Shown here: one piece after another, positions 20,992 to 32,296 of the stretch
Layout: every line of letters starts with the position of its first letter
Numbering within the stretch: position 1 is the first letter of the stretch
DNA from: Candidatus Poribacteria bacterium
Lineage (GTDB): Bacteria; Poribacteria; WGA-4E; WGA-3G
NCBI GenBank assembly: GCA_965215265.1
Contig: OZ244048.1
Coordinates: 1,056,001 to 1,120,000 of the forward strand
Direction: 5' to 3'
DNA length: 64,000 nt
Program-made: the position numbers and the translations under genes
Notes under the pieces: generated by a model
What the model was told of the DNA's origin: nothing
Seen by the model: the letters and a program-made list of their open reading frames with translations, nothing else
The model's database searches: none

Positions 20992-21174
20992 TTACGAGGC
21001 GATCCGTTCGGATTCCAACGCCAACCATTCTCCATAACCGCGCGGCATCTCCGCAGGCGGTTCTAATCCGGCTTCTTCGTGCCACCGGAGCAAAGGGTGC
21101 CGCCGGTCTGTTTGTGGTAGTTCGACCTGCCTACCATACGCCGCAGATTCAAAGATACCCATCATCATCTCAAT
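20992..21174 (-). pseudogene. C-terminal tail fragment of a second Gfo/Idh/MocA-like oxidoreductase
   Basis: Manual translation IEMMMGIFESAAYGRQVELPQTDRRHPLLRW...; compare LEIMLAIYES...VTMPM in 55599-56663. Confidence 0.55.
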
Positions 21175-24100
21175 TAGTGGTGACGTGCTGCCGTAGACGA
21201 AAAAAGTTCCCGACGTAGGAATTGTGCCGTATGCGAATCGTGCACGGTTGAAACCTCCTCCGGTGTACCGCTCGCGACAAGGTAACCGCCCCCTTTACTG
21301 CCCTCGGGTCCCAAGTCAAGAATCCAATCTGCCGATTTGATAACGTCCATGTTATGTTCGACGGCAATAATGGTGTTGCCTGCATCAACCAGCCGGTTGA
21401 GCACCTTGAGCAATTTCTGCACGTCGTCAAAATGCAGTCCTGTCGTGGGTTCATCCATGATATAGAGTGTCTCCGCGGCGTGTCTGCGCGAGAGCTCTTT
21501 GGCGAGTTTGATTCGCTGTGCTTCTCCGCACGAGAGCGTGGGTGCGGATTGTCCCAACTGGATATACTCCAAACCAACGTCCGCTAGCGTCTGGAGTGGA
21601 TGCTGAATCTTCTTAATATCTCTGAAGAGATGAAGTGCCTCTTGCACCGTCAATTGGAGAACCTCGGCGATGTTTTTTCCTTTGTAGCGTACGGAGAGCG
21701 TTTCAGCATTGTAACCGGTACTACCGCATGTCTCGCAGGGCACCCACACATCTGGCAAGAAGTGCATCTCAATCCGGAGGTAGCGGTGCCCATCACAGTC
21801 AGGACACTGACCATAGTTCAGATTGAAACTGAACCGACTTATATTAAACCCTCGTACTTTCGCATCCGGTAACGTTGCGAACAATTCGCGAATGTGTGTA
21901 AATACCTCGGTGTAAGTTGCTGGATTTGAGCGCGGGGTCTCGCCAATCGGTTTCCCATCCACGTTGATAAGTCGTCGAATGTTGCTTGCTCCCTTGATGC
22001 GTTGATAATTCGGCTTTTCGTCTATCTCCGTACCATCATCGCGTTTGTTTTGATGGCTCGTGTGTAAATCTCGTCGGAGCCCTTCGATATTTAGATTCAT
22101 TACATCTGATGTAATGTGCTGCGGTATACAAGAAAGTGCTGGGCGAAGCGTGCCATCGACAAGCGAACTTTTCCCAGACCCGGAAACGCCTGTCACGCAA
22201 ATTAACGTGCCAAGCGGCATCTTTACATCAATATCTTTCAGGTTGTTGGTTCGGGCACCTAACAATTCCAACCATTTTCCGTTGCCTTTCCGTCGGACCG
22301 ACGGCACCGGAATCTGCTTCGCATTGGAGAGATAGGCATGTGTTAAAGAGGTTCCTACCTTTTTTGCTCCGTTTTCAACGGTATCTGCTTTTTCGTATAT
22401 GTCAGCCCTATCAACGGTTGATGTTTTTTCGTATATTTCCGTACCATCATCGCTGATGTTTTGATGGCTTGTGTGTAAATCTCGTTCTTTCGTATCTTTC
22501 AGCCCATCAACGTCTGATGTTTTGCTATCCGTTGTACAAATCTCGCCAGAGCCATTCGAGTTTGAATCTAAACATCGGGACCCTCCGACGAGATTTGTAG
22601 TGGGTTGAACACTACAACTGCCTTTGTTGTGCAGCGATATACTAAAAGAGGTTTCTTGACTAAATGCGTGTGGTGTACCTATTGCAACAATTTCGCCGCC
22701 ATGTTCGCCTGCTCCAGGTCCGAAATCAATAATATGGTCTGCGGCTAAGATGGTGTTCCTATCGTGTTCAACAATTAGAACGTTGTTTCCGATGTCACGG
22801 AGGGACTTCATGGCCGAAATAAGCCGCTCCTGGTCTCGTGGATGCAGGCCGATGCTGGGTTCATCAAGGATGTAAGTAACGCCTGTCAACCCACTCCCGA
22901 GTTGGCTGGCGAGCCGGATACGCCGGATTTCACCTCCGGAAAGCGTGGGCGCGGGCCGATCTAACTCCAAATAGCCGAGGCCTATATCCTCAAGAAACTG
23001 GAGCCGCCTCACGGTTTGAGAGAGCAGTTCTGCCTCAAACTCAGGTGACGTGTAGCCGTGGAGGGTTGTATGTGTTGCTCTGGATGTTGCGGGACCCGTT
23101 AGCGGCTGACCTTGTTTTTCGTATATTTCCGTAGCATCACCGCTGAGGTTTTCTCTGTTTAGATTCATATTAATCTGCCTAATACGCCGGGTGAAGAAAG
23201 AAATAATCTCCGTAATTGGTAAGGCCATCAATTCAGCAATGGTTTTGTCAGAGAACATGACAACACTTGGAAAGGGTTGGAGTCGAGTTCCTTCGCAAGC
23301 AGAACAAACCTTGTGGCTACCGGCAATAGGAGAGTGTCCGCGCCCATCGCATTCAGTGCATGCGCCGATTTTGTTGTTAAAAGAGAAGTGCCGAGGCGTG
23401 AGTTGTGGAAAATTTTCACCGCACGATGTACACATCGCGTGCTCACTAAAGAAATATCGCATGGGTGGTTTGCCACGACTTGTAGAACGATTTCTTTCTT
23501 GCACTTTTTGGAAACAGATGAACCCTTCGCTTTGCAGGAGTGCCAATTCGACCGCTTCGGCGAGCCTGCTTTTTTCCTCATCCACAAGTTCCAGCCTGTC
23601 AATAACGAGGAAGATTTCGTGGTGTCTCCGTTTGTCAAGTTTCGGTGCTTCATCTAGGCGATGCATTTTGCCATTAATCAGGGCACGTACGAATCCTGCC
23701 TTTTGCAGCCGCCGGAATGCATCGATGAAATTCTCACTCCCTTTTAAGAGGCGTTCGATACGCGTGCCGCCGGCGAAATGTGTCATCGGAGCAAGCACAT
23801 CAATCCGCTGTTGATGCATGCTTTCAAAGACTGAGGTTGCAATCTGTTCTGCGGTCTGTGGTTGTACCACTTCGAGGCAATTCGGGCAATGTGGTACGCC
23901 CCAGCGTGCGTAAAGGGATCGGAGCCGATCGTGAATGTCGGTGATTGTCGCGACGGTAGAGCGTGGATTTTGGCTGGGGCTATCGTGTGAGATGGCAATA
24001 GCTGGGGAGAGCCCGTCAATGCTTTTAACCTTCGGTTTCTCCATCTGCCCGATGAATTGCCTAGCGTACGTATTGAGGGTTTCAATATAGCGACGTTGCC

Positions 24101-27100
24101 CTTCGGCATACAATGTATCCAACGCAAGCGATGTTTTGCCGGAGCCGCTGACCCCAGTAAAAGCAGTGAGTGTAAGGTGCGGGATGTCAATGTCAATCTG
24201 TTTGAGATTATTTTGTTCGGCCCCGCGTACGGTAATCATATTTTCGTCTTTTTCGTCTATCTCGGTACCGTCAATGTTTATGTTTTGATTCGGTGGACTG
24301 CCCGATTTTTCAAATTCACCACGGAGTGCTTGTCCGGTGTAAGAGTCTGGAACCTGGGCGAGTTGTTCAGGCGTACCAACAGCGACGATGGTTCCGCCGT
24401 TGGCACCTCCTTCGGGTCCCAAGTCTAGAAGATAATCAGCTGAATTAATGACTTCAAGATTGTGTTCAACAACGAGCACCGTATTGCCTGCATCAACGAG
24501 CCGGTGGAGGATGCGCAACAACTTATTGACATCATCAAAGTGCAACCCGGTGGTCGGTTCATCCAGCAGATAGAATGTTTTACCGGTGCTGCGCTTAGAA
24601 AGCTCACGGGCGAGTTTGATGCGTTGGGCTTCACCGCCGGAAAGTGTGGGTGCCGGCTGTCCCAATTTTATGTAATCTAATCCAACATCGTGGAGGAGTT
24701 GTAACGTTCTGGCAATTTTAGGAATATCAGCGAAATGGGCGAGCGCAACATCAACATCCATTTCGAGGACATCGGCGATACTTTTCTGTTTGTATTTTAC
24801 GGTGAGCGTCTCGCTATTGTATCGTCTACCTTCACATACGTCACATGCAACCCAGACATCAGCAAGTACCCCCATGTCAACCTGCTTGGCACCATTGCCT
24901 TTACATACCTCACACCTGCCTCCCGGTACGTTAAAGCTAAACCGCCCTGGTTTGTATCCACGCCATTTAGATTCCGGCAGTCCGGCGTAAAACGAACGGA
25001 TTGCATCAAACACTTTGGTGTAAGTCGCGGGATTTGAGCGGGGTGTCCGCCCGATGGGTGCCATGTCAATATTGATGATTTTGTCAATCACATCTGATAT
25101 CGGAACAGTCTTTCCGTCAATGATACCTTGGATGTCACGGTAGGCCCCCGGCACCGTCTTGGCGCGCATCAGGTCGCGGGCGAGGGCGTTATAGACAATA
25201 TCATGGACCAGCGAACTCTTTCCGGAGCCGCTGACACCTGTCACACAGCAGAATGTCCCAATAGGTATCTTCGGACTGATCGATTTCAGATTGTTTTGAC
25301 AAGCATCTCGGATATGCACCCACCGCGTCCCTGTAGTTCTGCGGGATTCGTTTTTGACAATCTGTTTATCCCCGCGCAGGTATTGTGCTGTGAGCGAATC
25401 ACTCTCTTTAAGGATTTGTGCGGGCGTTCCCATGGCTGTGATTTGTCCGCCTTGAACACCGGCCTTCGGACCGAAATCAACTATCCAATCGGCGATTAAC
25501 ATGGTGGCTTCGTCGTGTTCAACGACAATGACTGTGTTGCCCTGGTCGCGGAGTTTGCTAAGTGTTGTGAGCAGTCCTGCGTGGTCACGTGGGTGTAAAC
25601 CGATGCTAGGTTCATCAAGAACATAGATGACATCGCGTAACCCTGCGCCGACTTGGCTGGCAAGCCGGATACGTTGGGCCTCTCCGCCAGAAAGCGTGGG
25701 TGCGGAACGTGATAAAGTGAGATAGCCTAACCCGACATCCATCAGGAATTTGAGACGCCCACGAATCTCTTTTAGCAATTCGGCTGCGATAAATGCCTCA
25801 CGCTCAGGAAGTTGAAGCGTTTCAAAGAAAGGTGCGGCTTCTTCAATGGACATTTGTAGGACATCCGTAATTGCTTTGCCGTTTAGGGTTATCGTGCTAA
25901 CTCTAGGATTGAGTCTGCTACCGTTACAAGCTCGACACGGCATTTTCGCAAAAAAGTCGGGAAGGGATCCTTCTTGGATCGATGCATATTGTTCCTCATG
26001 CGCTGGGATGACACCTTGAAACCTGCCGCGATACCTTCGCCGTTTATGGCTTCCTTGTGAAGGTCTCGAAAAAGATAAGACAGTGTCACCCGTACCGTAA
26101 AGTATCGCGTGCTGTTGCTCAGGACTGAGTTCTTTCCAAGTGGTATTAATATTAAATTTGAGATGCTTGGCGAGCGTACGAAGGATGGCCAGATGCTGGG
26201 CATCTAATTTTCCCCAGAGCGTTATGGCTCCTTGTGGAATGGAGAGTGTTTCATCGGGGATAATTAAGGCTGGGGAGATGCCCATCAATGTCCCCAATCC
26301 GGTGCATTCAGGGCACATTCCTTGGGGCGTATTGAATGAGAAATGGCGTGGTTCTGGAATTTCATAACTGGCCTGACACTGGGCACAGGCGTATGCTGTA
26401 CTGAATAACTCATCTCTACCTCTTAAGTCGCTTTTTTCGTATATTTCCGTACCATCATCGCTGATGTTTTGCTGATTCGTGTGTAAATCTCGTCGCCCGC
26501 CCACCCAAATCCTCTCTCTGTTTTGATTCACATTTTCGTCTTTAGGGGGCATGATGTGAACAATGAGGTTTCCATCACCTATGTTCAAAGCGGTTTCAAC
26601 GGCTTCAGCGACACGACTCTCAATTGCAGAGGTAGTTTCTCTGTTTGCATGTTTGAGGATAAGCCTATCAACAACGATGTCAATATCGTGCCGTTGATTC
26701 GGGTTCAGGCGAAGTTCAGTTCCAATTTCATGCATCTCGCCGTCAATGCGAGCTCTCACAAATCCTGCTTTTCGAGCATCATCAAGTTCTTTGTTATGGG
26801 TACCGCGGCGTGCGCGAATGATAGGTGCCAAGATGAGGAGCCGGGTCCGGGCAGGAAAGTTGAGGATGTGTGCAGCAATATCTGCGCCGGTTTGTGAGCC
26901 GACAGGCTCACCACATTCCGGGCAGTGGAATTTTCCAACACGCGCAAATAAAACACGCAGGTAATCGTAAATTTCTGTCACGGTGGCAACCGTGGAACGC
27001 GGATTATGTGCTGTTGAACCTTGGTCAATAGCAATGGATGGAGCCAAGCCGATAATTTTGTCAACCTCTGGTTTAGCGAGCTGCCCTAAAAATTGTCGAG

Positions 27101-27380
27101 CATACGCTGATAGCGATTCTATGTACCGGCGCTGTCCTTCGGCATAAATGGTATCAATAGCTAAGGAAGATTTGCCAGAACCGCTAACCCCTGTAAAGAC
27201 AATCAACTTCCCTTTTGGAAGTTCAATATCAATATTTTGTAGATTGTGCTCTCGCGCCCCCTGTATTTTTATATATTTCCGTTTTTCGTATATTTCCGTA
27301 CCATCATCGCTGATGTTTTGATGGCTCGTGTGTAAATCTCGTCGCCCGCCCACCCAAATCCTCTCTCTGTTTTGATTCAT
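21174..27380 (-). CDS. uvrA: Excinuclease ABC subunit A, double-length (two fused UvrA units) with repeat-derived inserts
   Basis: Four GVSGSGK[ST] Walker A motifs, four LS[GC]GE signatures, zinc fingers, RSNPATYT twice. Confidence 0.95.
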   Translation of the reverse strand: MNQNRERIWVGGRRDLHTSHQNISDDGTEIYEKRKYIKIQGAREHNLQNIDIELPKGKLIVFTGVSGSGKSSLAIDTIYAEGQRRYIESLSAYARQFLGQLAKPEVDKIIGLAPSIAIDQGSTAHNPRSTVATVTEIYDYLRVLFARVGKFHCPECGEPVGSQTGADIAAHILNFPARTRLLILAPIIRARRGTHNKELDDARKAGFVRARIDGEMHEIGTELRLNPNQRHDIDIVVDRLILKHANRETTSAIESRVAEAVETALNIGDGNLIVHIMPPKDENVNQNRERIWVGGRRDLHTNQQNISDDGTEIYEKSDLRGRDELFSTAYACAQCQASYEIPEPRHFSFNTPQGMCPECTGLGTLMGISPALIIPDETLSIPQGAITLWGKLDAQHLAILRTLAKHLKFNINTTWKELSPEQQHAILYGTGDTVLSFSRPSQGSHKRRRYRGRFQGVIPAHEEQYASIQEGSLPDFFAKMPCRACNGSRLNPRVSTITLNGKAITDVLQMSIEEAAPFFETLQLPEREAFIAAELLKEIRGRLKFLMDVGLGYLTLSRSAPTLSGGEAQRIRLASQVGAGLRDVIYVLDEPSIGLHPRDHAGLLTTLSKLRDQGNTVIVVEHDEATMLIADWIVDFGPKAGVQGGQITAMGTPAQILKESDSLTAQYLRGDKQIVKNESRRTTGTRWVHIRDACQNNLKSISPKIPIGTFCCVTGVSGSGKSSLVHDIVYNALARDLMRAKTVPGAYRDIQGIIDGKTVPISDVIDKIINIDMAPIGRTPRSNPATYTKVFDAIRSFYAGLPESKWRGYKPGRFSFNVPGGRCEVCKGNGAKQVDMGVLADVWVACDVCEGRRYNSETLTVKYKQKSIADVLEMDVDVALAHFADIPKIARTLQLLHDVGLDYIKLGQPAPTLSGGEAQRIKLARELSKRSTGKTFYLLDEPTTGLHFDDVNKLLRILHRLVDAGNTVLVVEHNLEVINSADYLLDLGPEGGANGGTIVAVGTPEQLAQVPDSYTGQALRGEFEKSGSPPNQNINIDGTEIDEKDENMITVRGAEQNNLKQIDIDIPHLTLTAFTGVSGSGKTSLALDTLYAEGQRRYIETLNTYARQFIGQMEKPKVKSIDGLSPAIAISHDSPSQNPRSTVATITDIHDRLRSLYARWGVPHCPNCLEVVQPQTAEQIATSVFESMHQQRIDVLAPMTHFAGGTRIERLLKGSENFIDAFRRLQKAGFVRALINGKMHRLDEAPKLDKRRHHEIFLVIDRLELVDEEKSRLAEAVELALLQSEGFICFQKVQERNRSTSRGKPPMRYFFSEHAMCTSCGENFPQLTPRHFSFNNKIGACTECDGRGHSPIAGSHKVCSACEGTRLQPFPSVVMFSDKTIAELMALPITEIISFFTRRIRQINMNLNRENLSGDATEIYEKQGQPLTGPATSRATHTTLHGYTSPEFEAELLSQTVRRLQFLEDIGLGYLELDRPAPTLSGGEIRRIRLASQLGSGLTGVTYILDEPSIGLHPRDQERLISAMKSLRDIGNNVLIVEHDRNTILAADHIIDFGPGAGEHGGEIVAIGTPHAFSQETSFSISLHNKGSCSVQPTTNLVGGSRCLDSNSNGSGEICTTDSKTSDVDGLKDTKERDLHTSHQNISDDGTEIYEKTSTVDRADIYEKADTVENGAKKVGTSLTHAYLSNAKQIPVPSVRRKGNGKWLELLGARTNNLKDIDVKMPLGTLICVTGVSGSGKSSLVDGTLRPALSCIPQHITSDVMNLNIEGLRRDLHTSHQNKRDDGTEIDEKPNYQRIKGASNIRRLINVDGKPIGETPRSNPATYTEVFTHIRELFATLPDAKVRGFNISRFSFNLNYGQCPDCDGHRYLRIEMHFLPDVWVPCETCGSTGYNAETLSVRYKGKNIAEVLQLTVQEALHLFRDIKKIQHPLQTLADVGLEYIQLGQSAPTLSCGEAQRIKLAKELSRRHAAETLYIMDEPTTGLHFDDVQKLLKVLNRLVDAGNTIIAVEHNMDVIKSADWILDLGPEGSKGGGYLVASGTPEEVSTVHDSHTAQFLRRELFSSTAARHH

Positions 27381-27381
27381 A

Positions 27382-27602
27382 TTTTTATATATCTCCGTAC
27401 CATCTTTTTGTATATCTTGGTACCATCACCGCTTATGTCTTGTTTCATCGTGTGTAAATCTCGTCGGAGGTTAGCTAGGTAATGTCTTTAAAATCGTAGA
27501 CATAAACGGCTCCGACGAGATTTTCACAGGTTTTTATATAGCAGCAGCCTTTATTGGGCTCCTGTAGACAAAAGACCTTTATTGGGCTCCTGTATATGAA
27601 AA
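27382..27602. repeat. Family A palindromic doublet element (full unit ~27405-27574) with duplicated ends
   Basis: Outer TTTTTGTATA...TAGACAAAA; inner inverted repeat AAATCTCGTCGGAG/CTCCGACGAGATTT. Confidence 0.85.
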
Positions 27603-28511
27603 ATCTTTGAGTTTACGCGGATCTTTTCGCCAATCGGCTTTGACAGTGACATAAAGTTGCAAAAAAACATGGGTATCCAAAAATTTTTCAATATCGGACC
27701 GGGCGAGTTCCCCGACACGTTTAATCACCCTGCCGGCTTTTCCGATGATAATTTGCTTTTGCGTCTGTCGTTCGACATAGACAATAGCCCGGATATACAC
27801 AGTTGCATTCTCGCGCCTGGTGCATTGCTCAACAACAACAGCTGTCGCGTATGGAACTTCTCGCTGCGTGAGCAGCATAATTTTTTCTCGTACGGTCTCA
27901 GCGATGAAAAAACGTTCTGGTAAATCGCTGAGGTGTTCTTCTGGAAAATAGCGTGGCCCCGGCGGTAGTTGAATATGTACGTGCTCAAGGAGGCGAGGGA
28001 TACCGTCACCCGTACGCGCGGAAATGGGTATCATTTCCTTGAATGCAAATTTCTTGGCGTAACTTGCTATGATCGGGAGCAACGTCTCTTTTGAAATTAA
28101 ATCGACTTTGTTCATGGCCAAAATTGCAGGGTGCTTCGCGCTGCGTAGACGTGCTAACATCTGCTCTTCATCGGCAGCTTCTGGTCGGGCAACATCAATT
28201 ACGCAAAGGACTACATCGGCACCTGCTAAAGCACTATAAGCGGTTTTTACCATTTCACTTTGCAACCGGTAAGTTGGATGCATCAGCCCGGGGGTATCAA
28301 CAAAAATGATTTGGTAGGATTCTGTTGTAACAATTCCGCGTATCTGGTTCCGAGTTGTCTGCGGTTTTGGGGTGACAATCGCCAGTTTCTGCCCTAATAG
28401 CGCATTGAGGAGTGTTGATTTACCGACATTAGGTGCCCCGATGATGCTGACATAGCCGGATCTGAATTCTTTCGTATATTTAAGCACGTTACCACCTGAT
28501 GTTTTTAGCAT
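27579..28511 (-). CDS. era: GTPase Era
   Basis: GAPNVGKSTL, KPQTTR, DTPG, NKVD, KH domain IIIGKAG. Confidence 0.96.
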   Translation of the reverse strand: MLKTSGGNVLKYTKEFRSGYVSIIGAPNVGKSTLLNALLGQKLAIVTPKPQTTRNQIRGIVTTESYQIIFVDTPGLMHPTYRLQSEMVKTAYSALAGADVVLCVIDVARPEAADEEQMLARLRSAKHPAILAMNKVDLISKETLLPIIASYAKKFAFKEMIPISARTGDGIPRLLEHVHIQLPPGPRYFPEEHLSDLPERFFIAETVREKIMLLTQREVPYATAVVVEQCTRRENATVYIRAIVYVERQTQKQIIIGKAGRVIKRVGELARSDIEKFLDTHVFLQLYVTVKADWRKDPRKLKDFSYTGAQ

Positions 28512-28812: not shown

Positions 28813-30765
28813 TTAGGGCCAAAATTGGTAAACCGTCGTATTTGCCAAAACGCTGCAAATGCTCCATAAACTTCCGAAGATGTAGTCTCCAAGCGCGAGG
28901 CCCAAAAATAAGGGGACTGCGCGTCTATAGGCTTTGAGCCCACCATGGTGTAAGACCAATGCTTTGGCTACCCAGGCGACAAAGAGGCAGCTCCAGAGAT
29001 TGTACATACCCCAACTGTTCGCCATGGCGTACCCGAGGGGATGCAGTGGCCACCATAAAAACCGGGTGCGTAGCAACATAAGTCCCATTGCAAATGCACT
29101 GCCTCCGCCGATAAATGTAAGGGCCGGAATATCGGTCCCTTGTGGATAATTCAGCCAATTTTCAAGTTGACGGTAGACACCTCTGCCAAAGCCGAGTGCC
29201 CACGGGCCGTAGTAACCTGTCTCGGCACCGTGGCGGTAGTAATTCTCTAACAACAGCCAGAAGACAACAAGCGCACCAATTCCGGTAGCGATGAGAATTG
29301 CTACGGCTATGTGCCCTGGATGTATCTGTCTCCGTTCTGCGATTTTGAATGCCTCTAATTCTTGCGGCATCGGGTGTGCACGGTAGGCACGGTTAAAGAA
29401 CATGTACAGCGAAAATACTCCCTTGGTACTCGTGTTGAACCGCTGCGTTCCAAATGCCGTCACCAATAAACTGTGCGGGTCTACGCGATGTAAATCGTGA
29501 ACTAAGAACCCTAGTTCGGCACGGAGCCGCGCAATCATGATTGCAAGCAGGAAGTAAATTCCGAAAAAGAGCGGCACCACCCACAGTGCCATGCCTGCTT
29601 TGTAAGAGAAAGCTGTCAAAAAGAGGCTCCCGCCCACGATGCCAAGGCACGCAAAATGATACGGCATCGGTTCACGTCTATCTCCGTTTTTTCTTCTAAA
29701 TCTGTCTCGGATACCCGCAATTACGTAGTTGAAATGTGCTCTGCCTATCCACGCCGCACTCCCCAGCAGGGCAAGGTACGCGCCGAAGCTCTGTGCATCT
29801 GCATAAGGAAAACCGGGCAGCTGCCGCACCCCCAAGACACTACCTGCCATGAGTTCAAACTTATATAACCAATAGAATACCCAACATGAAAAAAGCAGAT
29901 CTAGAGGTATCAGGAAACTAATCCCAATTGCAAATGGGTAAAATGAGAGGCGGACACCACCCATGGCGTTCCAAGGCCGTCCCGTAAAAAATTGATGTAT
30001 ATTTTGTCGTTTAACCGGCACATACGGCACCGCAGGATATATTGAATTGAGTAGATTCATCACGCTAATACCAGCTGCAATACCAAAACCTACCCACATC
30101 AATTTATTTTTGAAAAAACTCGCCCCCGTATCTGTCATCGCCAGCGGCAATTGGATAATTGGGTATGTCAGCCGCTCACGCTCTGTCCACTGGATTCTGA
30201 GTAAGGTGTTGATGCATAACATGACAAACATCAACACGAAGATGAAAACTGTCCACCAAACGATAGGTGTTGCCCATGCAATCAGATGGTCCCTGCGGTA
30301 AAAACTGGACTGCCCCTCATAATACCCAGATAAGACTCGGGTATCTTGGACGGTGAGCCATGTAGGTAATTCTTTCCAAAATAGTTGCTGCCATTCGTTC
30401 TCCGGTGTGGCAAACTGAAACGGATGCCCTAAGAGTGTGACGAGAATTTCCATCATATCGTGCGAACAGAGAGAAGAGACAATGCACAACATGACATAGA
30501 TAGTGAGTAACTCGGCACCGGATAGCCACAACTTTTTTGATAATTTGCCGAGTACCGCCCGTAGTACGAGCAACCAAAACAAGATAAAAATAACGTTAGA
30601 GAGCGGATGAATTAGCGTCGGATGTGTATATCGCACTACCTCCAACTGAATTATCCAGTAAACGTTAACAGGCATCAGGAGGAGTGCGATGAAAAGTGCC
30701 TTCGGTGTTAAGCCTGATTCATAAGTGCTCCTATTTTGGGTGGATCCATCCGCGTTCCTTTTCAA
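28813..30765 (-). CDS. Polytopic membrane protein, DUF6785/DUF6784-like putative peptide transporter
   Basis: ELLTIY, QWTERERLTYPIIQLP, WWPLHPLGY, KAYRRAVPLFLGLALGD. Confidence 0.7.
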   Translation of the reverse strand: MKRNADGSTQNRSTYESGLTPKALFIALLLMPVNVYWIIQLEVVRYTHPTLIHPLSNVIFILFWLLVLRAVLGKLSKKLWLSGAELLTIYVMLCIVSSLCSHDMMEILVTLLGHPFQFATPENEWQQLFWKELPTWLTVQDTRVLSGYYEGQSSFYRRDHLIAWATPIVWWTVFIFVLMFVMLCINTLLRIQWTERERLTYPIIQLPLAMTDTGASFFKNKLMWVGFGIAAGISVMNLLNSIYPAVPYVPVKRQNIHQFFTGRPWNAMGGVRLSFYPFAIGISFLIPLDLLFSCWVFYWLYKFELMAGSVLGVRQLPGFPYADAQSFGAYLALLGSAAWIGRAHFNYVIAGIRDRFRRKNGDRREPMPYHFACLGIVGGSLFLTAFSYKAGMALWVVPLFFGIYFLLAIMIARLRAELGFLVHDLHRVDPHSLLVTAFGTQRFNTSTKGVFSLYMFFNRAYRAHPMPQELEAFKIAERRQIHPGHIAVAILIATGIGALVVFWLLLENYYRHGAETGYYGPWALGFGRGVYRQLENWLNYPQGTDIPALTFIGGGSAFAMGLMLLRTRFLWWPLHPLGYAMANSWGMYNLWSCLFVAWVAKALVLHHGGLKAYRRAVPLFLGLALGDYIFGSLWSICSVLANTTVYQFWP

Positions 30766-32293
30766 TCAAAACCTCCGTTTTGAAAGGTGCACACCGCTGT
30801 TGATAATCCCGTAATGTTTCGATCGCTGTTTCTCCATGAAGCAGACTGGGTTGGTACTTTTTCTGGGGTGTTTCTGTTAAAATTGGAATCAATTCAATGA
30901 ATCTCAGCTGCCGATTAGCATAAGTAGCTTTGGGTATAACGATTTGAGCGTACTGTTTAGAATACGTATCATATATAAAATCAGCGAGACTGTAGATAAT
31001 CGGTTTGCCCTGATAAAGTTCGATGCCACCGAAGTGATGAAGTTGTTGACAGACAACCATATCGGCACCTGTATCAATGAGGGCGTGCGCAAATAGCTGC
31101 TGACGGCGAATCGCCTGTTCTCTGGCCTGATTTCTAAAGTCGCTTTTCTCAACTAGAGCGTCAGCGTGTTGTGCTTGTTGGTGCCGTTGCCGTTCTGGCG
31201 GATTCACTTGACGCCCCGTCCCACCCCAGTGTAGCAACACGATGACAAGTTTCGCTTTGTCCCGTACGTCCGTGACGGCTTCCATCATTTCGCTATAAAC
31301 CGCATCCGCAAGTAGTTCTGCCTTGTGCTGCGAGAATTCGTTTTGTCGATAATAGGCGAGTACGGCAACTTTTTGTATACTGGAACCCATCAACGCCTGA
31401 TGTGTTTCGTCTATCTCGGTACCATCATCGCGTTTGTTTTGATGACTCGTGTGTCCAGCTCGTCGGAGGTTTCTGATGTTTTGATTCATACTCCGGCGCA
31501 CCGTTTCAATATTGGATGGCACGCGTGGGACCGGTATCCATGCGGGCATCCGTGCCTCTGTGGTAGTTGTACCGGCACCAACCGGCTTGACATTATACCT
31601 TTTAAGTTCTGTGAGTGTATCTGCTAACGCTTCAAAACCGAAGTCCATACTGTGCGGGGTAGCTAAGGAGACGGCATCAAAACCTGCGTTTGCGAGTGCC
31701 CTTGCGAGTCCCAATGATGCGCGGAAGGTGTGTTCATGTCCGTACCGTGGCTCTCCTCGTTCTGAAATGCTTGTGTTGAGAAAGGCAACGGCGATATCTG
31801 CAGACTGAATCGACTCAGCGGTGCCTTTAAAAAAGATACCTGCTCCATTTATTTCTATCAGTGGTGTGAGACGGTTCCCGACAGTAATATCGCCAACAGC
31901 GAGGACGGTGAGTGTCTCAGCACCGGTGGTGCTTTGAGGCTGAAGTGCAACGTACGGCTGCTTTGGTTTCGCGTTCAAACCATCTAAGGAACCAGAGATA
32001 TCTTGGCTTGAGACGTTCAGGATGATGCACAGGCATGCGCAAATTTGGAACGCGACGAAAAATACGTTTTTGTATCTCTCCGTACCATCAACGCTTATGT
32101 CGTGAGTACTCGTGTGTAAATCTCGTCGGAGGTTATCGATGCTATGAATCATAGCATCGGAAGGCTCTGGCGAGATTTGTGCTTCGTTGTTCATTACATC
32201 TGTTGTGTTGTGCTCCTGTAGACGAAAAAACGAGATTTGTGCTTCGTTGTTCATTACATCAATCTGTGTTGTGCTCCTGTAGACGAAAATCAT
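30731..32293 (-). CDS. CapA-family (PGA_cap) metallophosphatase-fold protein; start uncertain because the N-terminus is repeat-derived
   Basis: LAVGDI, AGFDAVSLA, MDFG, LHWG, GIELYQGKPIIYSL; several metal-binding motifs degenerate. Confidence 0.75.
   Translation of the reverse strand: MIFVYRSTTQIDVMNNEAQISFFRLQEHNTTDVMNNEAQISPEPSDAMIHSIDNLRRDLHTSTHDISVDGTERYKNVFFVAFQICACLCIILNVSSQDISGSLDGLNAKPKQPYVALQPQSTTGAETLTVLAVGDITVGNRLTPLIEINGAGIFFKGTAESIQSADIAVAFLNTSISERGEPRYGHEHTFRASLGLARALANAGFDAVSLATPHSMDFGFEALADTLTELKRYNVKPVGAGTTTTEARMPAWIPVPRVPSNIETVRRSMNQNIRNLRRAGHTSHQNKRDDGTEIDETHQALMGSSIQKVAVLAYYRQNEFSQHKAELLADAVYSEMMEAVTDVRDKAKLVIVLLHWGGTGRQVNPPERQRHQQAQHADALVEKSDFRNQAREQAIRRQQLFAHALIDTGADMVVCQQLHHFGGIELYQGKPIIYSLADFIYDTYSKQYAQIVIPKATYANRQLRFIELIPILTETPQKKYQPSLLHGETAIETLRDYQQRCAPFKTEVLIEKERGWIHPK
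32067..32289. repeat. Family A element with tandemly duplicated right arm, overlapping the CapA 5' end
   Basis: AGATTTGTGCTTCGTTGTTCATTACATC...CTCCTGTAGACGAAAA occurs twice. Confidence 0.85.
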
Positions 32294-32296
32294 CGC

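What the first reader, a model, noticed from the sequence alone, without database searches (positions are those of the whole stretch)
22015..27380. UvrA carries at least six in-frame repeat-derived peptide inserts
Seen: the family A arm is translated as RRDLHTSHQNISDDGTEIYEK-like peptides at 27282-27380 (N-terminus), 26433-26531, 24249-24290, 23115-23168, 22389-22640 (composite, ~85 aa) and 22015-22100. The first two are near-identical 33-aa copies. The frame stays open over 2068 aa, the inserts avoid the ABC motifs, and nearly all use the same frame and orientation. Known: Rickettsia palindromic elements insert in frame into protein surface loops. Inference: an independent and very dense case of selfish DNA generating new protein sequence.
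Basis: partly seen in the sequence, partly recalled or inferred. Interest (0 to 1): 0.85.

Follow-up and report, generated by a model that had tools for sequence, protein, structure and literature searches.

The report
Repeat DNA translated inside a double UvrA
A DNA-repair gene of a sponge-associated bacterium has taken up copies of a small genome-wide repeat at six places without breaking its reading frame, so about a tenth of the predicted protein, including its start, is made of repeat sequence; this kind of event is known from Rickettsia, but rarely this dense in one gene.

Summary
Observation confirmed. Window 21174-27380 (-) is one open 2068-codon gene for a tandem-fused double UvrA. 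It holds nine units or fragments of an ~81-nt repeat at the six sites named.

- **Repeat family:** 773 hits in this 4.83-Mb genome, 695 of them intergenic. No match in 30 relatives searched, including the same-genus genome.
- **True insertions:** the same-genus ortholog lacks all six. Net changes are +108, +21, 0, +237 and +39 nt, plus a replaced 5' end where the repeat supplies the only in-frame ATG.
- **Position:** they sit in variable linkers, away from every ATPase and zinc motif, and are modelled as disordered.
- **Selection:** dN/dS is 0.14 against the same-genus ortholog. Against a second strain that carries the same repeat junctions, changes are 22 synonymous to 11 non-synonymous.
- **Assembly:** contigs from four studies carry the flank-repeat junctions.
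- **Recurrence:** two unrelated repeat families sit in frame in linkers of this gene in two other genera.

This works like Rickettsia palindromic elements and is a new member of a known kind. This scan has reported similar cases in other genomes. Translation and the mobility mechanism are inferred, not shown.

The parts
21174..27380 (-). Tandem-fused double UvrA gene (2068 codons plus stop). The first half is a complete class-I-like UvrA. The second half lacks an alignable insertion domain.
   Evidence: UvrA_inter 2 stretches, UvrA_DNA-bind 1 stretch. NF001503 scores 2373.9 bits against a cut-off of 1147. for the PDB alignments.
27282..27380 (-). Site 1: a full repeat unit forming residues 1-33. 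It supplies the only in-frame ATG (27380). An in-frame GTG at codon 10 also lies in the repeat. The native M-V-E-T-S start seen in the same-genus ortholog is gone.
   Evidence: 27286-27377, E 1.1e-15.
26433..26544 (-). Site 2: a full unit, a clean +108 nt (36 codons) relative to the same-genus ortholog. It lies in the loop between the UvrB-binding domain and the zinc module of half 1 (residues about 281-317).
   Evidence: 2.9e-15. In one search the insert falls between residues 257 and 259 of 2r6f.
24249..24290 (-). Site 3: a partial unit (profile positions 45-81), net +21 nt, in the linker joining the two UvrA halves (NQNINIDGTEIDEK).
   Evidence: E 3.7e-5 in 6.7 kb; family D2 (72%). A single contig bridges it in all 4 runs laid.
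23115..23171 (-). Site 4: an internally deleted unit (5' end plus profile positions 48-81). It replaces a stretch of equal length (net 0 nt) where half 2 lacks the insertion domain (NMNLNRENLSGDATEIYEK).
   Evidence: E 2.4e-4; 2 mismatches in 29 nt; family D12. A single contig bridges it in 3 of the 4 runs laid.
22389..22644 (-). Site 5: a composite of four units (one inverted, one in a second frame, two in the usual frame), net +237 nt (79 codons). It lies in the linker between the third and fourth ATPase domains. The mRNA can form a 17-bp hairpin here.
   Evidence: In one search it falls between residues 555 and 554 of 3pih.: -72.7 kcal/mol, z -3.7; pLDDT 22-26.
22015..22100 (-). Site 6: a full unit, net +39 nt, in the loop about 20 residues after the fourth Walker A motif.
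   Evidence: E 1.8e-18. In one search it falls in the 637-649 loop of 3pih; model residues 733-769 have pLDDT below 50.
27381..27578 (-). Spacer between the upstream ORF 27579-28511 (-), read as era, and uvrA, filled with repeats. An inverted pair of units (27410-27486 and 27500-27570) forms a long hairpin. A unit end (GGAG followed by 12 A/T-rich nt) abuts the ATG.
   Evidence: pair I4; -35.4 kcal/mol, z -4.0. 'era' is read from the P-loop sequence and was not tested.

Best explanation
A non-coding repeat family of about 81 nt has expanded in this one species. It sits mostly between genes, in arrays and sometimes as inverted pairs.

Copies that land inside genes are normally lost. A copy survives only if three things hold: it lands in a stretch that tolerates extra residues, it adds a multiple of three bases, and it is read in a stop-free frame. 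The consensus is stop-free in only two of six frames. The frame most used gives a hydrophilic peptide, NQN..RRDLHTSHQNISDDGTEIYEK.

The tandem double UvrA offers unusually many permissive places: its N-terminus, the loop after the UvrB-binding domain, the linker between the two halves, the degenerate insertion-domain region of half 2, the linker between ATPase domains, and a loop after the fourth Walker A. It is also backed up by a canonical UvrA and evolves about twice as fast. It has therefore accumulated six insertion sites, about 215 repeat-derived residues and a net gain of about 171 aa over the same-genus ortholog. One site overwrote the native start and now provides the ATG and a GGAG-containing leader.

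Shown here: the repeat origin of the inserts, their absence from orthologs, their position in linkers, the intact motifs, purifying selection, and support for the assembly. Inferred: that the inserts are translated and remain in the mature protein as disordered surface loops, that the element is or was mobile, and that tolerance rather than targeting explains the density.
For: - **Family size and placement:** 773 hits, of which 695 are intergenic. Density per kb is 0.28 in divergent spacers, 0.91 in convergent and 1.03 in co-directional ones.
- **Species-specific:** no match in 30 relatives, including a complete same-genus genome.
- **Absent from orthologs:** 0 hits in 11 orthologous loci at E<=1.
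- **Insertions in frame:** protein and DNA alignments show insertions in multiples of three at variable linkers.
- **Open frames:** the consensus is open in 2 of 6 frames. 198 of 466 full-length copies are open in the used frame, against 62-65 in the other two same-strand frames.
- **Structure mapping:** PDB alignments place sites 2, 5 and 6 between aligned blocks. In the half-2 model (mean pLDDT 60.5, which matches UvrA structures) every insert region falls in a segment below pLDDT 50.
- **Motifs:** all 4 Walker A, 4 signature and 4 Walker B motifs found, the 2 H-loops that the pattern matched, and 4 zinc modules are intact. G000 has 26 singleton deviations at otherwise invariant columns, inside the range of 2-43 among the 12 orthologs.
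- **Selection:** dN/dS is 0.138 against 0.068 for the canonical UvrA. A strain about 0.5% diverged carries the same flank-repeat junctions, with 22 synonymous and 11 non-synonymous changes among the 33 listed.
- **Enrichment:** 5 of 16 deep genic hits lie in this gene, against 0.022 expected.
- **Other hosts:** other proteins also carry units in linkers, namely GcvP, GlyQS, a PGA_cap protein, a sulfotransferase and a subtilase.
Against: - No RNA or protein evidence; no RNA run was listed as holding the stretch.
- No single short-read contig spans the four larger inserts. They are covered by contigs that end inside the repeat.
- No transposase, terminal inverted repeat or target-site duplication was found. 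PF01797 is absent, 17 of 18 candidate internal segments are single-copy, and the two insertion sites inspected for a duplication showed no clean one. Mobility is therefore unproven.
- The composite insert forms a 17-bp mRNA hairpin that could affect expression of the last ~430 codons.
- The first-half structure model failed (mean pLDDT 41.7). Surface placement of sites 1 and 2 rests on sequence alignment only.
- Gene calls used for the census are crude.
- Nine further strain differences were not shown by the tool and are not in the 22:11 count.
- G000 alone has Ser where 11 orthologs have Cys in the fourth Walker A.
Confidence: 0.75

Rival explanations
1. The double UvrA of this species is a redundant paralog on its way to decay. 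The inserts are tolerated because the protein no longer matters, and the frame is open only because the events are recent.
For: A canonical UvrA is present. dN/dS is twice that of the canonical copy (0.138 against 0.068). G000 has a unique Cys-to-Ser change in the fourth Walker A. The native start codon is lost.
Against: A 2068-codon frame is intact through nine repeat pieces whose consensus is closed in 4 of 6 frames. dN/dS of 0.14 is far below 1. The 22:11 ratio of synonymous to non-synonymous changes is against a strain that carries the same flank-repeat junctions, so most of that divergence probably followed the insertions. All catalytic motifs found are intact and singleton deviations are within the orthologs' range. 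The double gene is open in all 30 relatives.
Confidence: 0.08
2. The density reflects targeting or selection rather than tolerance. Either the elements integrate preferentially in this gene, or longer flexible linkers built from repeats are favoured in a single-chain UvrA dimer.
For: Three unrelated genus-level repeat families sit in frame in linkers of the same gene. G000's family is one. A 33-nt-periodic family lies in loop A of the G002 ortholog, with 55, 59 and 44 matches in three genomes of that genus and 0 in G000. A third family lies in the inter-half linker of the G012 and G018 orthologs, with 48 and 34 matches, and 0 in G016 and G000. Enrichment in G000 is over 200-fold. Copies 1 and 2 are each other's closest relatives at 96%.
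Against: The sites used are exactly the linkers that vary in length and sequence in all 19 orthologs compared, as tolerance predicts. The insertion points share no evident target motif. Other multi-domain proteins also carry units in their linkers. The window as a whole is about three times richer in repeats than the genome average (29 hits against 10.2 expected), so local spread is enough. No control set of other long linker-rich genes was surveyed in the relatives.
Confidence: 0.12
3. The inserts are an assembly artefact: repeat copies wrongly threaded into the gene.
For: Short-read contigs break inside every large repeat, and none spans sites 1, 2, 5 or 6 in one piece.
Against: Contigs from four studies join unique flanks to repeat sequence, with 0 mismatches in X1. 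The same break pattern appears in an independent 2019 study, X5. Sites 3 and 4 are bridged by single contigs, in 4 and 3 of the 4 runs. The genome is one 4.83-Mb contig. Artefacts would not keep the frame open at six sites.
Confidence: 0.02
4. The repeat segments are in the DNA but not in the working protein. Translation may start downstream at a non-canonical codon, or the mRNA may be cleaved at the hairpin so that separate polypeptides are made.
For: The GGAG lies 12 nt from the ATG, which is long for a Shine-Dalgarno spacing. There is a strong 17-bp hairpin in the composite insert.
Against: There is no ATG, GTG or TTG between codon 10 and the conserved IQGAREHNL block. The internal inserts have no stop and no obvious restart signal. 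Bacteria are not known to splice mRNA of this kind (general knowledge).
Confidence: 0.03

Closest known systems
Rickettsia palindromic elements (RPEs; Ogata et al. 2000, 2002, as summarised in passages of the review PMC10969869)
   Same: A small dispersed non-coding repeat is found in frame inside unrelated genes. It is read as a conserved hydrophilic peptide at positions compatible with the fold. The family is lineage-specific.
   Different: Units here are about 81 nt, against about 150 bp for RPEs, and are not palindromic on their own (z -0.4). Only 16 of 773 hits lie deep in crude genes, whereas nearly half of the RPE copies first reported lie in ORFs. One gene carries six sites, and one copy donates the start codon. 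The phylum is different. No sequence comparison with RPEs was made.
REP / BIME clusters of enterobacteria and pseudomonads
   Same: The repeats lie in intergenic arrays, are commoner where a gene ends than in divergent spacers, and form mosaics of direct and inverted units with hairpins.
   Different: No RAYT or Y1 transposase gene was found in the genome (PF01797 gives 0 hits while the control genomes ring). The units are longer and A/T-rich rather than short G+C-rich palindromes.
Bacterial MITEs that make in-frame fusions: intragenic ERIC/RU elements (PMC2759123, listing and abstract only) and Coxiella QMITE1/2 (PMC5896051, passages)
   Same: Small repeats overlap ORFs and add residues in the middle or at the ends of proteins. 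QMITE2, for example, gives EnhC a 33-aa C-terminal extension.
   Different: No terminal inverted repeats, target-site duplication or parent insertion sequence could be shown here.
Tandem-fused double UvrA proteins of about 1650-1834 aa, annotated as UvrA in Chlamydiota, Armatimonadia, Latescibacteria, Pirellulales and others; NCBIfam NF001885/PRK00635 (1809 positions)
   Same: The architecture is the same: two UvrA units in one chain. It is present as an open frame of 1836-2034 aa in all 30 relatives searched.
   Different: The protein scores 1296.7 bits against a cut-off of 3054 for NF001885, so it is not that equivalog. With 2068 aa it is longer than the 30 relatives' open frames because of the repeat inserts.

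Membership tests
UvrA (excinuclease ABC subunit A) | Score above the curated cut-off of the equivalog models | tested here: met
   NF001503 scores 2373.9 bits (cut-off 1147) and TIGR00630 scores 2298.1 (cut-off 729.8). Both halves are matched.
UvrA (excinuclease ABC subunit A) | Two ABC ATPase modules per UvrA unit with Walker A, signature and Walker B motifs, plus zinc modules | tested here: met
   4 Walker A, 4 signature, 4 Walker B and 4 Cys4 modules are present. The last signature reads LSCGE, as in the same-genus ortholog.
Fused double UvrA, NCBIfam NF001885 (PRK00635) | Score above the curated cut-off of 3054 bits | tested here: not met
   1296.7 bits. The architecture is shared but this is not a member of that equivalog.
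RPE-like in-frame repeat insertion (behaviour, not sequence family) | Member of a dispersed multi-copy repeat family that is mainly non-coding | tested here: met
   773 hits, 695 of them intergenic.
RPE-like in-frame repeat insertion (behaviour, not sequence family) | Copy lies inside a conserved gene, the frame stays open, and the copy is absent from orthologs | tested here: met
   (0 hits in 11 orthologous loci).
RPE-like in-frame repeat insertion (behaviour, not sequence family) | Insert lies at a surface loop or linker compatible with the fold | tested here: met
   Gaps in the alignments to 2r6f and 3pih. Low-confidence coil in the half-2 model. The half-1 model was unusable.
RPE-like in-frame repeat insertion (behaviour, not sequence family) | Palindromic (hairpin-forming) element | tested here: inconclusive
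   Single units have z -0.36 and -0.47. The composite has z -3.7 and the inverted pair z -4.0.
RPE-like in-frame repeat insertion (behaviour, not sequence family) | Insert retained in the mRNA and the protein | not testable with these tools
   No RNA holder was listed and there are no proteomic data.
Rickettsia palindromic element sequence families | Sequence similarity to an RPE family | not tested
   No RPE sequence was at hand. Rfam was not searched.
MITE | Terminal inverted repeats and a target-site duplication | tested here: inconclusive
   No clean duplication at the two insertion sites inspected for one, uvrA site 2 and the glyQS linker. Only about 31 of 202 inverted arms have a partner 30-70 nt away.
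MITE | A parent insertion sequence with the same ends | tested here: not met
   Of 18 segments of 600-3000 nt lying between inverted arms, 17 are single-copy. The one multi-hit case has arms repeating every 122 nt, consistent with a tandem array.
REP/BIME | Associated RAYT (Y1 transposase, PF01797) | tested here: not met
   0 matches in G000, while 6 of the 14 control genomes ring.

The most novel reading that the evidence does not exclude
The tandem double UvrA of Poribacteria may be a recurrent, gene-specific sink for small repeats that tolerance alone does not explain. Three unrelated genus-level repeat families have been built in frame into the same few linkers in three genera. In this species one family even re-headed the gene with a new start. 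On this reading the repeats are either drawn to this gene or kept because longer flexible linkers help a single-chain UvrA dimer.
Probability: 0.15. Interest if true: 0.7.

Novelty: new member of a known kind. Interest (0 to 1): 0.5.

Why it matters
In-frame capture of small repeats is one of the few ways bacteria add wholly new residues to old proteins. It is best documented in Rickettsia. This case has four useful features:
- It lies in a free-standing phylum of sponge symbionts.
- It puts six sites and about 10% of the residues into one well-understood enzyme with many solved structures.
- It comes with a natural insert-free control, the same-genus ortholog.
- It has parallel events in two other genera.

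That makes two open questions directly testable. One is how much disordered insertion a molecular machine tolerates. The other is whether such inserts are neutral passengers or useful linkers.

It also has a practical side for annotation. Start codons and protein lengths in these genomes can be set by repeats, so homology-based length checks will flag sound genes as odd.

Tried and rejected
- **RNA evidence:** no RNA holder was listed for the stretch, so expression could not be examined.
- **Half-1 structure model:** mean pLDDT 41.7 and pTM 0.28 with a 12-row alignment. It was not used.
- **Batch fold:** It was repeated as a single fold and a shorter batch.
- **Target-site duplication:** none that is clean at uvrA site 2 or in the glyQS linker.
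- **Parent mobile element:** PF01797 absent. No multi-copy segment between inverted arms apart from one site where arms repeat every 122 nt, consistent with a tandem array.
- **Did the repeat create the glyQ-glyS fusion?** Rejected, because relatives have the fusion without the repeat.
- **Second insertion of the G012 family in that ortholog's linker D:** there is only a peptide-level likeness (ARNEVEG). The DNA search did not list that place, so it is not claimed.
- **Is the 21-aa LTKKQSRGTG... insert of genus g2 the same repeat as in loop A?** blastn found no match.
- **Literature on UvrA classes:** the search returned mostly UVRAG papers. Only a passage on class II UvrA was read (PMC5128194). 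I found nothing in print on fused double UvrA in that search.
- **Literature on Poribacteria repeats:** a search for Poribacteria with 'palindromic' and 'repeat' listed 10 of 31 papers. None of the 10 titles or abstract openings concerns such repeats. The other 21 were not seen.
- **Supplementary files** of the papers were not consulted.
- **Empty-site alleles:** none of the 15 joints shown corresponds to a precise absence of an insert. A further 36 joints were not shown.

Full report
**What is there**

Window 21174-27380 on the minus strand is a single open frame of 2068 codons. It encodes two complete UvrA units in tandem.
- NCBIfam's UvrA equivalog NF001503 scores 2373.9 bits against a cut-off of 1147, with stretches in both halves.
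- Pfam finds the UvrB-interaction domain twice and the UvrA DNA-binding (insertion) domain once.
- Half 1 aligns to Geobacillus UvrA 2r6f over residues 24-257 and 259-958.
- Half 2 aligns to Thermotoga UvrA 3pih over 2-284, 432-555, 554-637 and 649-914. It therefore lacks an alignable insertion domain.

The window lies in a 4.83-Mb single-contig genome. All 30 relatives searched, up to order level, have an open frame of 1836-2034 aa matching this double UvrA. Matches to a second, canonical-length UvrA are listed for most of them, and G000's own lies at C1:2541647-2544583.

Fused double UvrAs of 1650-1834 aa are common in public data under names from Chlamydiota, Armatimonadia, Latescibacteria, Pirellulales and others. 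Two close hits are named Candidatus Poribacteria. That fits the organism name given in earlier notes of this scan.

**The repeat**

- An 87-nt unit taken from a tandem array, iterated three times with nhmmer, gives 773 hits in the genome. The consensus unit is 81 nt.
- With a crude gene set of 3665 ORFs covering 83% of the genome, 695 hits are intergenic and 78 genic.
- Density per kb is 0.28 in divergent spacers, 0.91 in convergent ones and 1.03 in co-directional ones. The units therefore favour places where a gene ends.
- They form tandem arrays and sometimes inverted pairs with 17-20-bp stems. Single units do not fold better than shuffles.
- The family gave no match in any of the 30 relatives, including the complete same-genus genome.
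- No Y1/RAYT transposase is present. No multi-copy segment lies between inverted arms, apart from one site where the arms repeat every 122 nt. No clean target duplication was seen at the two insertion sites inspected for one. How the family spreads is therefore unknown.

**The inserts**

- Seven are strong, with E between 5.6e-13 and 1.8e-18.
- The pieces at 24253-24289, 23119-23152 and 22393-22426 are partial units with E of 3.7e-5, 2.4e-4 and 7.7e-5 in 6.7 kb.
- None of 11 orthologous loci has a hit at E<=1.

Against the same-genus ortholog the net changes are +108, +21, 0, +237 and +39 nt. All are multiples of three.

At the 5' end the native M-V-E-T-S start is replaced by repeat sequence. 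The only in-frame ATG (27380) and a GTG at codon 10 both lie in the repeat. The ATG is preceded by another unit's end, GGAG followed by 12 A/T-rich bases.

Many other units in the genome end just before a start codon. Of the 418 copies that point at a co-oriented downstream gene, 76 end 0-19 nt before its first ATG. This is an upper bound, because my crude caller takes the first ATG.

By my count from the coordinates, about 215 residues are repeat-derived. The protein is about 171 aa longer than the same-genus one.

**Frames**

- The consensus unit is stop-free in 2 of 6 frames.
- 198 of 466 full-length copies are open in the frame that gives NQN..RRDLH..DGTEIYEK, against 62-65 in the other two frames of that strand.
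- Seven of the nine pieces in UvrA use that frame. The composite also has one inverted unit and one unit in a second frame from which the consensus stops are absent.
- The bias in frame and orientation is therefore what selection against stops would give. About two open frames in six is also what chance gives for 27 codons (my estimate).

**Where they sit**

- Site 2 falls between residues 257 and 259 of 2r6f.
- Site 5 falls between residues 555 and 554 of 3pih, and site 6 in its 637-649 loop.
- Site 3 is in the linker between the two halves.
- Site 4 is where half 2 lacks the insertion domain.
- In 19 orthologs these same five regions vary widely in length: 11-65, 19-52, 28-41, 17-104 and 26-47 residues.
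- All Walker A, signature and Walker B motifs and the zinc modules are intact.
- The AlphaFold model of half 2 has mean pLDDT 60.5 and pTM 0.55. It matches UvrA structures with a query TM-score of 0.59-0.62. It puts every insert region in coil below pLDDT 50; the composite scores 22-26.
- The half-1 model was too poor to use.

**Is the gene alive?**

- dN/dS against the same-genus ortholog is 0.138. The canonical UvrA gives 0.068.
- Contigs of an independent study (X5) carry the same flank-repeat junctions in a strain about 0.5% diverged. Of the 33 differences listed, 22 are synonymous and 11 are not. Nine more were not shown.
- Singleton changes at otherwise invariant columns number 26 in G000, within the range of 2-43.
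- One oddity: G000 alone has Ser for Cys in the fourth Walker A.

**Is the assembly right?**

- 17 run rows from 11 studies hold the stretch or part of it. Four runs from four studies were laid.
- Short-read contigs end inside the large repeats, as expected. Even so, they join every unique flank to repeat sequence, with 0 mismatches in X1 and the same pattern in X5.
- A single contig bridges site 3 in 4 of the 4 runs and site 4 in 3 of the 4.
- None of the 15 joints shown is a precise empty site; 36 joints were not shown.

**How unusual is it?**

- Only 16 hits lie at least 150 nt inside crude genes, in 9 genes. UvrA has 5 of them, against 0.022 expected from the rest of the coding genome.
- The peptide pattern DG[TA]EI[YD][EK][KN] occurs 194 times in six frames. 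Sixteen of these are in frame within 11 crude genes, and 5 are in UvrA.
- Other hosts also carry the units in linkers: GcvP between its halves, GlyQS between its alpha and beta parts (a fusion also present in relatives), a PGA_cap protein in this window, a sulfotransferase and a subtilase.

**Recurrence**

- The G002 ortholog carries, in loop A, 165 nt of a 33-nt-periodic repeat. It has 55, 59 and 44 matches in three genomes of that genus and none in G000. Copies also lie just upstream of the gene there.
- The G012 and G018 orthologs carry a third family in the inter-half linker, with 48 and 34 matches and none in G016 or G000.
- Four of 19 orthologs, in three of six genera, thus have repeat-derived linker sequence from three unrelated families.
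- I did not survey other long genes of those genomes. Whether UvrA is special there is open.

**Comparison and verdict**

The behaviour is that of Rickettsia palindromic elements and of MITEs that make in-frame fusions. I read passages of the review PMC10969869 and of the Coxiella paper PMC5896051. For Delihas 2007, 2008 and 2011 I saw only the search listing and abstracts.

It is not shown to be a member of any of those sequence families, and the defining MITE and REP features were not met.

This scan has reported similar in-frame repeats in several other phyla, so the kind is not new. Three things stand out here: the density in one well-known enzyme, the donated start, and the parallel events in other genera.

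Translation and retention in the protein remain inferred.

Noticed in passing
window 30734-32296 (-): A PGA_cap family ORF of 521 aa carries repeat units in frame: one inside the Pfam domain at about residue 269-300, and one or two near the N-terminus that may lie upstream of the true start.
   Followed up: partly
G000:C1:4244340-4247528 (L021): The fused glycyl-tRNA synthetase (alpha plus beta, 1062 aa) has about 1.5 repeat units in the linker between the two parts. Relatives have the fusion without the repeat.
   Followed up: yes
G000:C1:243879-246896 (L013); C1:1637641-1638849 (L016); C1:1822018-1826265 (L017): Glycine dehydrogenase GcvP has a partial unit between its two halves. A sulfotransferase has three units inside its domain hit. 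A subtilase/FG-GAP protein has two units read in a different frame.
   Followed up: partly
genome-wide, e.g. G000:C1:4232272, 4237846, 3269018, 3565752: Many units end directly before a start codon (...GGAGATATACAAAA-ATG, read as ...TEIYKNM or EIYEKM if translated). The repeat end may therefore serve as leader and ribosome-binding site for dozens of genes. The count is an upper bound from crude gene calls.
   Followed up: partly
L003:2257-2421 (G002 ortholog) and L003:1400-1470: A 33-nt-periodic repeat with a GAGACC...GGTCTC palindrome, abundant in genus g2, is read in frame in loop A of the double UvrA. It also lies just upstream of that gene.
   Followed up: yes
L028:3218-3355 (G012) and L027:3107-3244 (G018): A third repeat family, with 48 and 34 genome matches, is read in frame in the inter-half linker of the double UvrA. 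A similar peptide (ARNEVEG) in linker D of G012 was not confirmed at the DNA level.
   Followed up: partly
window 22180-22210 (P0001 residue 1735): The fourth Walker A reads GVSGSGKSS in G000 but GVSGCGKSS in all 11 other orthologs compared. The last signature motif reads LSCGE in both genomes of this genus and LSGGE elsewhere.
   Followed up: no
G000:C1:4413183-4413641 and C1:1578978-1579466: Long tandem arrays of the unit with periods of about 87 nt and 122 nt. The first array is itself an open frame of 152 codons made only of repeats.
   Followed up: no
window 27548-27594: A second, unrelated 19-nt direct repeat (CCTTTATTGGGCTCCTGTA, two exact copies 28 nt apart) lies at the 3' end of the upstream ORF I read as era.
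   Followed up: no
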